The notes under the pieces were generated by a model. It made no database searches. It was not told where the DNA came from and saw only the letters and a program-made list of their open reading frames with translations. Positions 21,573-22,393 of a stretch of 64,000 nt of DNA are shown here, one piece after another; within the stretch, counting starts at the first letter, position 1, and each line of letters begins with the position of its first letter. Origin of the DNA: Octopus vulgaris (Eukaryota); NCBI GenBank assembly GCA_951406725.2, contig OX597833.1, forward strand, positions 72,788,001-72,852,000, in the 5' to 3' direction. Both the position numbers and the translations under genes were made by a program.

Positions 21573-21639
<67 letters not shown>

Positions 21640-21647
21640 TATATATA

Positions 21648-21829
<182 letters not shown>

Positions 21830-22341
21830 TGTAAAGTATAGAAGCCATCTTATCATGGCTAACCACATAGGGGAAAGCTACAGTAACACCCCCTCTCTAT
21901 GTGGTTAGCCATGATAAGATGGCTTCTATACTTTACATTATCGAGCGATTACTGTTTCAATCTCATTCTGAGATTTAATTATGCTTACTGTCAGTTTTTC
22001 GAAATCAGTGGCAGATGCCACTAGAAAAACTCTTATATATTTGCAAGGAAGCCTTCAGTTTCGTCACATCCTGGTGGTTACCGCCCGTTGACAAGGGACA
22101 AAAATCCCGAAACTAGTCCGAGCGTATCACTCAGGCTTGCGAGGAAAGGATGGCCTCCCTTTGCAAATACTTCAAGGGCACTGATATGGTGTCTAAAGCC
22201 AGCTAGAGACGACGATCTCTTGGGGCTATAAAGCTACAGTAACACCCCCTCCCCTATGTGGTTAGCCATGATAAGATGGCTTCTATACTTTACATTATCG
22301 AGCGATTACTGTTTCAATCTCATTCTGAGATTTAATTATGC
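21830..22341 (+). mobile_element. ORF-less PLE-derived/retrozyme-like unit: 5' inverted arm, two direct repeats of about 110 bp (period about 356 bp) and one HHR, inserted in (TA)n
   Basis: 21874-21984 matches 22230-22341; 21830-21874 is the reverse complement of part of that repeat; HHR at 22083-22123; (TA)n on both sides. Confidence 0.8.
22083..22123 (+). ncRNA. Minimal type I hammerhead ribozyme, U3/A8 core variant
   Basis: gcccg TTGACAA ggga-caaaaa-tccc GAAA CTAG TC cgagc; perfect stem II, palindromic stem III, GUC cleavage triplet. Confidence 0.7.
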
Positions 22342-22393
22342 CTATATATATATATATATACATATATATATACACGCACACACACACACGCGC

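What the first reader, a model, noticed from the sequence alone, without database searches (positions are those of the whole stretch)
21830..22341. Complete retrozyme-like unit: about 356-bp monomer with terminal redundancy, inverted arm and one HHR
The 110-bp direct repeats give about 1.3 copies of a 356-bp unit with no ORF, as expected from reverse transcription around a small circular RNA or of a partial tandem. The inverted arm matches the distal repeat copy (TCCCCTATGTG) better than the adjacent one (TCTCTATGTG). The size is in the range of animal non-LTR retrozyme monomers.
Basis: partly seen in the sequence, partly recalled or inferred. Interest (0 to 1): 0.7.

Follow-up and report, generated by a model that had tools for sequence, protein, structure and literature searches.

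The report
Penelope-pasted retrozyme with variant hammerhead
This is one of several hundred copies of a small protein-less jumping element that carries an unusual version of a predicted self-cutting RNA, and the fixed back-to-back shape of its insertions suggests that a Penelope-type enzyme copies one RNA from both strands of a DNA cut.

Summary
Observation confirmed: 356-bp ORF-less unit, 112-bp terminal repeat, 45-bp inverted arm, one type I hammerhead, in (TA)n. It belongs to a dispersed family (495 and 667 exact 31-mer matches). Copies continue upstream into the previous unit, never into an ORF, so they are not 3' stubs of an autonomous PLE. The inverted arm is a Penelope footprint: 3' ends fall at two points about 45 nt apart, and all 44 two-armed insertions with both ends at these points pair one of each. 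The two arms share alleles (63 of 75 vs 15%) and have 9-16-nt target duplications. Arms do not stop at the ribozyme site, so the template was a circle or an uncut tandem RNA; a circle is not shown. All 82 sampled hammerheads have U3: most U3•G8/GUU, the window's subfamily U3-A8/GUC. The 'distal repeat' clue is a private mutation. Animal non-LTR retrozymes and their PLE link are in print, and this scan already noted the same two-armed pattern in other families of this genome. Verdict: new variant of a known kind.

The parts
21575..21829 (.). (TA)n target microsatellite, left flank (hides any target duplication)
   Evidence: 52 of 115 family insertions lie next to (TA)4+
21830..21874 (-). Inverted short arm; its 3' end is at the short start site (S, about q65-69), its 5' end at the q19-24 stop hot spot
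21874..22229 (+). 356-bp unit, no ORF, rod-like predicted fold; first part of the long (tail) arm
21874..21984 (+). First direct repeat (start of unit) with a private 1-nt deletion and C>T
22070..22140 (+). Type I hammerhead: U3-A8 core (22088-22094), stem II with CAAAAA loop, palindromic minimal stem III, predicted cut after C22118
22230..22341 (+). Second direct repeat (start of next unit), ending at the tail start site (T, about q110-115)
22264..22281 (+). Hairpin 1, 5-bp stem kept in three related families with different loops, about 13 nt 5' of the S site; candidate PLE-protein binding element (inferred)
22295..22341 (+). Penelope-type 'tail' between the two start sites, containing hairpin 2 (22316-22332)
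   Evidence: PMC11167929
22343..22368 (.). (TA)n target microsatellite, right flank

Best explanation
This is a two-armed insertion of a dispersed, protein-less 356/357-nt hammerhead repeat, likely written into a TA microsatellite by a Penelope-like (PLE) reverse transcriptase-endonuclease that likely copied one RNA, probably a circle, from both nicked DNA strands. Shown: two fixed 3' ends about 45 nt apart, strict pairing of one of each, target duplications, shared alleles between arms, read-through of the ribozyme site and of the unit junction. Inferred: the enzyme (probably a dimer) binds the hairpin region, nicks both strands about 10-12 bp apart, primes at q~112 on one strand and q~67 on the other, both copies run 5'-ward and are joined at their ends with 0-6 nt of overlap or filler. 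Here the tail arm ran 468 nt (hence 1.3 units) and the short arm stopped after 45 nt. The hammerhead would make unit-length RNA and circles slowly; its activity is untested.
For: 44 of 44 two-armed insertions with both ends at canonical sites are S+T, 0 S+S, 0 T+T, among 115 insertions (9 further two-armed ones have an off-site end; 62 single-armed); in the set picked by a motif common to both arm types 24 of 24 (p 1e-7). 156 of 168 outer arm ends fall at q57-71 or q105-120. Target duplications of 9-16 nt in 14 of 16 two-armed copies outside (TA)n; 28 of 63 non-TA copies reach 7 nt vs 160 of 3906 mismatched flank pairs. Arms of one insertion share the minor allele at 63 of 75 sites vs 478 of 3226 in cross-pairs. 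Their 5' ends lie within 45 nt of each other in 28 of 44 (11.9 by permutation; 16 of 32 vs 7.0 without the short class) and the S arm reaches further in 26 vs 9 (p 0.006). 82 of 156 arms pass the ribozyme site, 6 pass it twice, with no excess of stops there (5 vs 4.0 expected). Successive units in one arm share minor alleles at 57 of 64 sites. The genome holds PLEs with RT plus GIY-YIG, many with a 781-aa open frame; that family has a U3-A8/GUU hammerhead and two 3' ends 40 nt apart. PMC11167929 shows two internal RT start sites bounding the tail, AT-rich nicking and extension of both strands.
Against: No circle or cleavage is shown. Most copies carry U3•G8 with GUU (59 of 82; 227 vs 43 exact matches genome-wide), which should be a weak ribozyme (recalled, not checked in a paper). 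5' ends pile up at q19-24 (17 vs 4.7 expected) about 20-25 nt behind a TATAAA, which could be a transcript start and so a linear template; the predicted fold gives no firm roadblock there. Only 2 of 73 private alleles are shared by successive units, expected if most arose after insertion but no positive sign of a circle. One insertion (L117) has arms that differ at 4 of 10 sites. No autonomous partner with sequence homology was found in 44 PLE loci. PMC11167929 found uncut RNA the dominant template in vitro.
Confidence: 0.6

Rival explanations
1. Same PLE machinery and two start sites, but the template is a linear, uncut transcript of a 2-3-unit genomic copy; the hammerhead is nearly dispensable and no circle is needed.
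For: Non-canonical core in all 82 hammerheads, U3•G8/GUU in 59; no stops at the cut site; q19-24 hot spot may be a 5' end; longest arm only 2.5 units; PMC11167929: hammerhead mutants insert normally; 8 of 9 Xenopus retrozyme dimers showed no cleavage in vitro (bioRxiv 10.64898/2026.07.22.740005).
Against: 37 of 156 arms exceed one unit, across many haplotypes, while the listed hammerhead matches (43 of 43 and first 100 of 227) show at most two adjacent units, so long source arrays are scarce; successive units are haplotype-matched; the hammerhead fold is kept across three families; coral, mussel and axolotl relatives are circular (PMC7229834).
Confidence: 0.3
2. The inverted arm is a fold-back (self-primed) copy of the first cDNA, trimmed at the S site, not a second priming event.
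For: Arms share alleles; 9 of 44 pairs end within 5 nt of each other, some as perfect palindromes; self-priming was proposed for PLE inversions (PMC3846280, passages).
Against: The S site is also the only 3' end in 32 single-armed insertions, several with target duplications; the S arm reaches further upstream than the T arm in 26 of 44 pairs, by up to 825 nt, which a fold-back copy cannot do without later one-sided deletions.
Confidence: 0.12
3. The copies are 5'-truncated 3' ends of a long autonomous PLE.
For: Same insertion anatomy as autonomous PLEs in this genome.
Against: Upstream of q1 lies the previous unit's end; no arm among 115 insertions continues into other shared sequence; the two widely spaced pairs checked were a secondary LINE-like insertion and a larger inverted duplication; no homology to 44 PLE loci.
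Confidence: 0.03

Closest known systems
Metazoan non-LTR retrozymes (Cervera and de la Pena 2020, PMC7229834, parts 2-4 of 6 read; mussel 350-390-nt family). Li, Clavereau and Pollet 2026, bioRxiv 10.64898/2026.07.22.740005, parts 1-3 of 5 read.
   Same: Unit size, type I hammerhead with short palindromic stem III, no ORF, no LTR, tandem or partial tandem copies, target duplications over 4 nt, co-occurrence with PLEs.
   Different: Core is U3•G8 or U3-A8, never C3; mostly GUU; copies are short dispersed one- or two-armed insertions rather than arrays; the parts read do not describe the two start sites or paired arms in retrozymes; circles and cleavage are untested here.
EN+ Penelope-like elements, tail and inverted pLTR (Frangieh et al. 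2024, PMC11167929, parts 1-2 of 4; Arkhipova et al. 2013, PMC3846280, passages; Craig et al. 2021, PMC8557442, passages)
   Same: Two 3' ends bounding a tail, head-to-head inverted 5'-truncated arm, tail on one end only, AT/microsatellite targets, about 9-12-nt target duplications, hammerhead in the repeat.
   Different: No ORF; tail about 45 nt (30-40 in print); in print the tail is 'optional' or 'often at one end', here the pairing is 44 of 44; in vitro no strand difference in start site was seen in bulk, and per-molecule pairing was not reported in the parts read.
Natural U3-A8 hammerhead variants (PMC4209133 parts 1-2, Schistosoma Cercyon PLEs; PMC3088659 section 8)
   Same: The window's subfamily, related family C and the genome's main PLE family have U3-A8.
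   Different: A U3•G8 core carried by the majority of a family's copies is not mentioned in the parts read; two paper searches for C3U gave nothing relevant.

Membership tests
Metazoan non-LTR retrozyme | Repeat unit of about 150-450 bp without ORF | tested here: met
   356/357 bp; longest ATG frame 41 codons
Metazoan non-LTR retrozyme | Type I hammerhead fold in each unit | tested here: met
   Rfam HH9 E 2e-6, below gathering score; present in all 43 aligned units
Metazoan non-LTR retrozyme | Canonical catalytic core CUGANGA | tested here: not met
   0 of 82 have C3; UUGACGA/GUU 59, UUGACAA/GUC 10, UUGACAA/GUU 4, others 9. U3-A8 is a known active covariation (PMC3088659)
Metazoan non-LTR retrozyme | Head-to-tail tandem or partial tandem copies | tested here: met
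   37 of 156 arms exceed one unit, up to 896 nt
Metazoan non-LTR retrozyme | Two consecutive units with complete hammerheads ('active' by the 2026 preprint), for this copy | tested here: not met
   The window copy has one hammerhead; 6 of 156 arms pass the site twice
Metazoan non-LTR retrozyme | Target duplications longer than 4 bp | tested here: met
   9-16 nt in 14 of 16 two-armed non-TA copies; hidden by (TA)n in the window
Metazoan non-LTR retrozyme | Self-cleavage | not testable with these tools
   No stop excess at the cut site neither shows nor excludes it
Metazoan non-LTR retrozyme | Expression as circular RNA | not testable with these tools
   Only contigs of runs guessed to be RNA were available
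PLE-mobilised element | Two 3' ends bounding a tail; head-to-head inverted arm; AT-rich targets | tested here: met
PLE-mobilised element | Identified autonomous partner sharing terminal sequence | tested here: inconclusive
   No homology in 44 PLE loci from one GIY-YIG search (30 of 150 scored matches as loci plus 14 stretches; 6136 candidates)
Autonomous EN+ PLE | ORF with RT and GIY-YIG | tested here: not met
   None in or joined to the element

The most novel reading that the evidence does not exclude
A PLE dimer uses its two start sites in a fixed, one-per-strand geometry on a single circular RNA, and this retrozyme lineage spread most after its hammerhead was weakened in two steps (U3-A8/GUC to U3-A8/GUU to U3•G8/GUU), so slow self-cleavage is favoured because it keeps the circular template closed. 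The three natural variants would give a ready-made series to test how ribozyme speed governs retrozyme mobility.
Probability: 0.25. Interest if true: 0.68.

Novelty: new variant of a known kind. Interest (0 to 1): 0.42.

Why it matters
That PLE enzymes move animal retrozymes has mostly been inferred from co-occurrence and pLTR similarity. Here the insertions themselves carry the PLE footprint and give a per-molecule rule (one short end, one tail end, one template) that bulk in vitro work did not address and that can be tested directly. The family also offers natural hammerhead core variants of very different copy number. The element itself is an ordinary mobile repeat with no sign of a host function, and the scan has noted the same anatomy in other families of this genome.

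Tried and rejected
1) 5' ends clustering at the ribozyme cut, suggested by the length-biased first 30 loci: not upheld in the motif-picked sample (5 vs 4.0). 2) Window core as a post-insertion decay: rejected, 43 exact copies genome-wide. 3) 'Arm matches distal repeat' as a clue: private mutation. 4) Order of hammerhead changes: unrooted chain A8C17 - A8U17 - G8U17, but the root moved between trees (with trait columns left in and labels CC/CT meaning A8C17/A8U17, where the row named OUT_B_L185 was cut from L217) and AU tests rejected neither rooting (p 0.51, 0.36, 0.77). Where both sister families agree with one side, 4 columns favour the window's subfamily as ancestral and 2 the majority; C17 by eye adds a fifth. 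Age proxy not different (2.9% vs 2.5%, p 0.12). 4 of 71 rows with unreadable cores were left out. 5) RNA-editing footprint: no A>G excess (36 vs 31 T>C, p 0.47). 6) Partner search: B-like and C fragments beside PLE loci L224 and L205 are separate insertions. 7) Structural roadblock at q19-24: not supported consistently. 8) Expression: no RNA holder listed; contigs of X1, X3, X9 (RNA only guessed) and X15 cover the unit in pieces and show nothing on expression or circularity. 9) Whole-window Rfam scan was swamped by microsatellite miRNA hits; miRNA hits on the palindrome are chance. 10) Motif counts were mis-indexed and replaced; set B used a motif shifted by one base. 11) The paper on exchanges of the 3-8 pair was not held, so the weakness of U3•G8 is recalled. 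Supplements of the papers were not read and may bear on core variants.

Full report
Observation. The element spans 21830-22341 between (TA)n tracts. 21874-21984 and 22230-22341 are 98% identical over 112 nt with period 356, and 21830-21874 is the exact reverse complement of 22250-22294. Rfam places a type I hammerhead (HH9) at 22070-22140 on +, E 2e-6 but under the gathering score. There is no ORF beyond 41 codons even round a circle.

Family. The own genome (2.8 Gb) gave 2082 first-look candidates, 40 scored; two 31-mers match exactly 495 and 667 times with zero control matches, so there are several hundred insertions, perhaps about a thousand (inferred). To avoid length bias I took the places listed first for both motifs (contigs C1-C4) and reduced them to 115 insertions. 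Copies differ by 4.8% on average. Upstream of q1 lies the end of the previous unit; 37 of 156 arms exceed one unit, the longest 896 nt. None continues into an ORF. The element is therefore a non-autonomous tandem or circular unit, not a PLE stub.

Insertion anatomy. 156 of 168 outer ends fall in two clusters, q57-71 (S, mostly 65-69) and q105-120 (T, mostly 110-115). Of 53 two-armed insertions, 44 have both ends at these sites and all 44 are S+T; 9 have an off-site end; 62 are single-armed (32 S, 28 T, 2 other). In the set picked by a motif shared by both arm types the count is 24 of 24 (p 1e-7). 52 of 115 lie beside (TA)4+; outside such tracts 14 of 16 two-armed copies have 9-16-nt target duplications, which include 1-3 letters of overlap with the element. 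Junctions have at most 6 nt of overlap or filler in 41 of 44. The window copy is a T arm of 468 nt plus an S arm of 45 nt. This matches the PLE tail, which PMC11167929 (parts 1-2 read) showed to be the stretch between two internal reverse-transcription start sites, with both target strands nicked and extended; inverted arms and one-sided tails are described in PMC3846280 and PMC8557442 (passages).

One template. The two arms share the minor allele at 63 of 75 informative sites against 15% for arms of different insertions; one insertion is discordant. This shows the same RNA or the same source locus. Their 5' ends are closer than chance (28 of 44 within 45 nt vs 11.9), and the S arm usually reaches further (26 vs 9), as expected if the S enzyme leads on one molecule (inference). 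Fold-back copying is disfavoured because S is also the sole end of 32 insertions and S arms can be hundreds of bases longer than T arms.

Circle or not. 82 of 156 arms cross the predicted cut site and stops there are not enriched (5 vs 4.0), which excludes cut linear monomers. Successive units are haplotype-matched (57 of 64) and long source arrays were not seen among the listed hammerhead matches, which favours a circle modestly. Against: a stop hot spot at q19-24 (17 vs 4.7) behind a TATAAA might be a transcript start, private alleles are rarely shared between units (2 of 73), and the ribozyme is non-canonical. No run on record as RNA was listed.

Hammerhead variants. All 82 sampled cores have U3: U3•G8/GUU 59, U3-A8/GUC 10 (window type), U3-A8/GUU 4, singletons 9; exact genome counts 227 vs 43. 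U3-A8 is a known natural, active covariation (PMC4209133, PMC3088659); that U3•G8 and GUU are weaker is recalled. Two related families were found: B (352 bp, 66% identical, CCGAUGA core, arrays up to 9 units) and C (about 360 bp, 63%, U3-A8/GUC); both show two 3' ends, and all three keep a 5-bp hairpin stem 13 nt 5' of the S site. The order of changes within the family leans towards the window type being ancestral but is not resolved.

Partner. The genome has many GIY-YIG loci (6136 candidates, 150 scored); two frames tested have RT plus GIY-YIG. The commonest intact family has a U3-A8/GUU hammerhead and two 3' ends 40 nt apart, but no sequence homology to the retrozyme was found in 44 PLE loci. 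The partner is unidentified.

Novelty. Animal non-LTR retrozymes and the proposal of PLE mobilisation are in print (PMC7229834, parts 2-4; bioRxiv 10.64898/2026.07.22.740005, parts 1-3). Searches listed no paper whose title or abstract start reports strict S+T pairing or a U3•G8 family; most hits were seen only as listings and supplements were not read. Earlier notes of this scan describe two-armed, PLE-inserted retrozymes in other families of this genome (read after my own reading was formed; they call the host a cephalopod, untested here); none matched this sequence, its neighbourhood or the core variant. Verdict: real, a new variant of a known kind, interest 0.42.

Noticed in passing
L085:1119-1182, L114:2934-3000, L003:2083-2146: A different repeat with Helitron-like ends (5' TC, 3' GC-rich hairpin; label recalled) carries an 81-86% diverged two-armed fragment of this element, so an old copy was captured and spread by another transposon.
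   Followed up: partly
L233:2643-5930 (G000:C6 near 79.93 Mb): A 3.3-kb LINE-like element (zf-RVT hit) inserted inside a family copy with an 18-nt target duplication just 5' of the hammerhead.
   Followed up: partly
L217:1900-5050, L218:1553-3321: Family B single arms of 9 and 5 units; the eight units compared in L217 differ by 2-4 letters, and both arrays share a stem II variant absent from the dispersed copies.
   Followed up: partly
L219:406-4090 and similar loci: A young, high-copy PLE of about 4.8 kb with a 781-aa RT-GIY-YIG frame preceded by a further long open frame; many near-identical copies.
   Followed up: partly
L224:1321-4483: A second PLE family, two-armed with the tail on the inverted arm only, whose hammerhead has a CCGAAGA (U4C) core.
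   Followed up: partly
L033, L081, L082, L085, L100, L101, L114, L159: Short near-perfect palindromes of about 140 bp in which both arms stop at q15-23; they look like MITEs but are minimal two-armed insertions.
   Followed up: partly
T ends of family copies, e.g. window 22341-22343: 7 sampled T ends carry one extra C between the element and the TA target, possibly a mispaired first base at priming.
   Followed up: no
L234:1929-3887: A 2-kb inverted duplication that copies one single-armed insertion together with its flanks.
   Followed up: no
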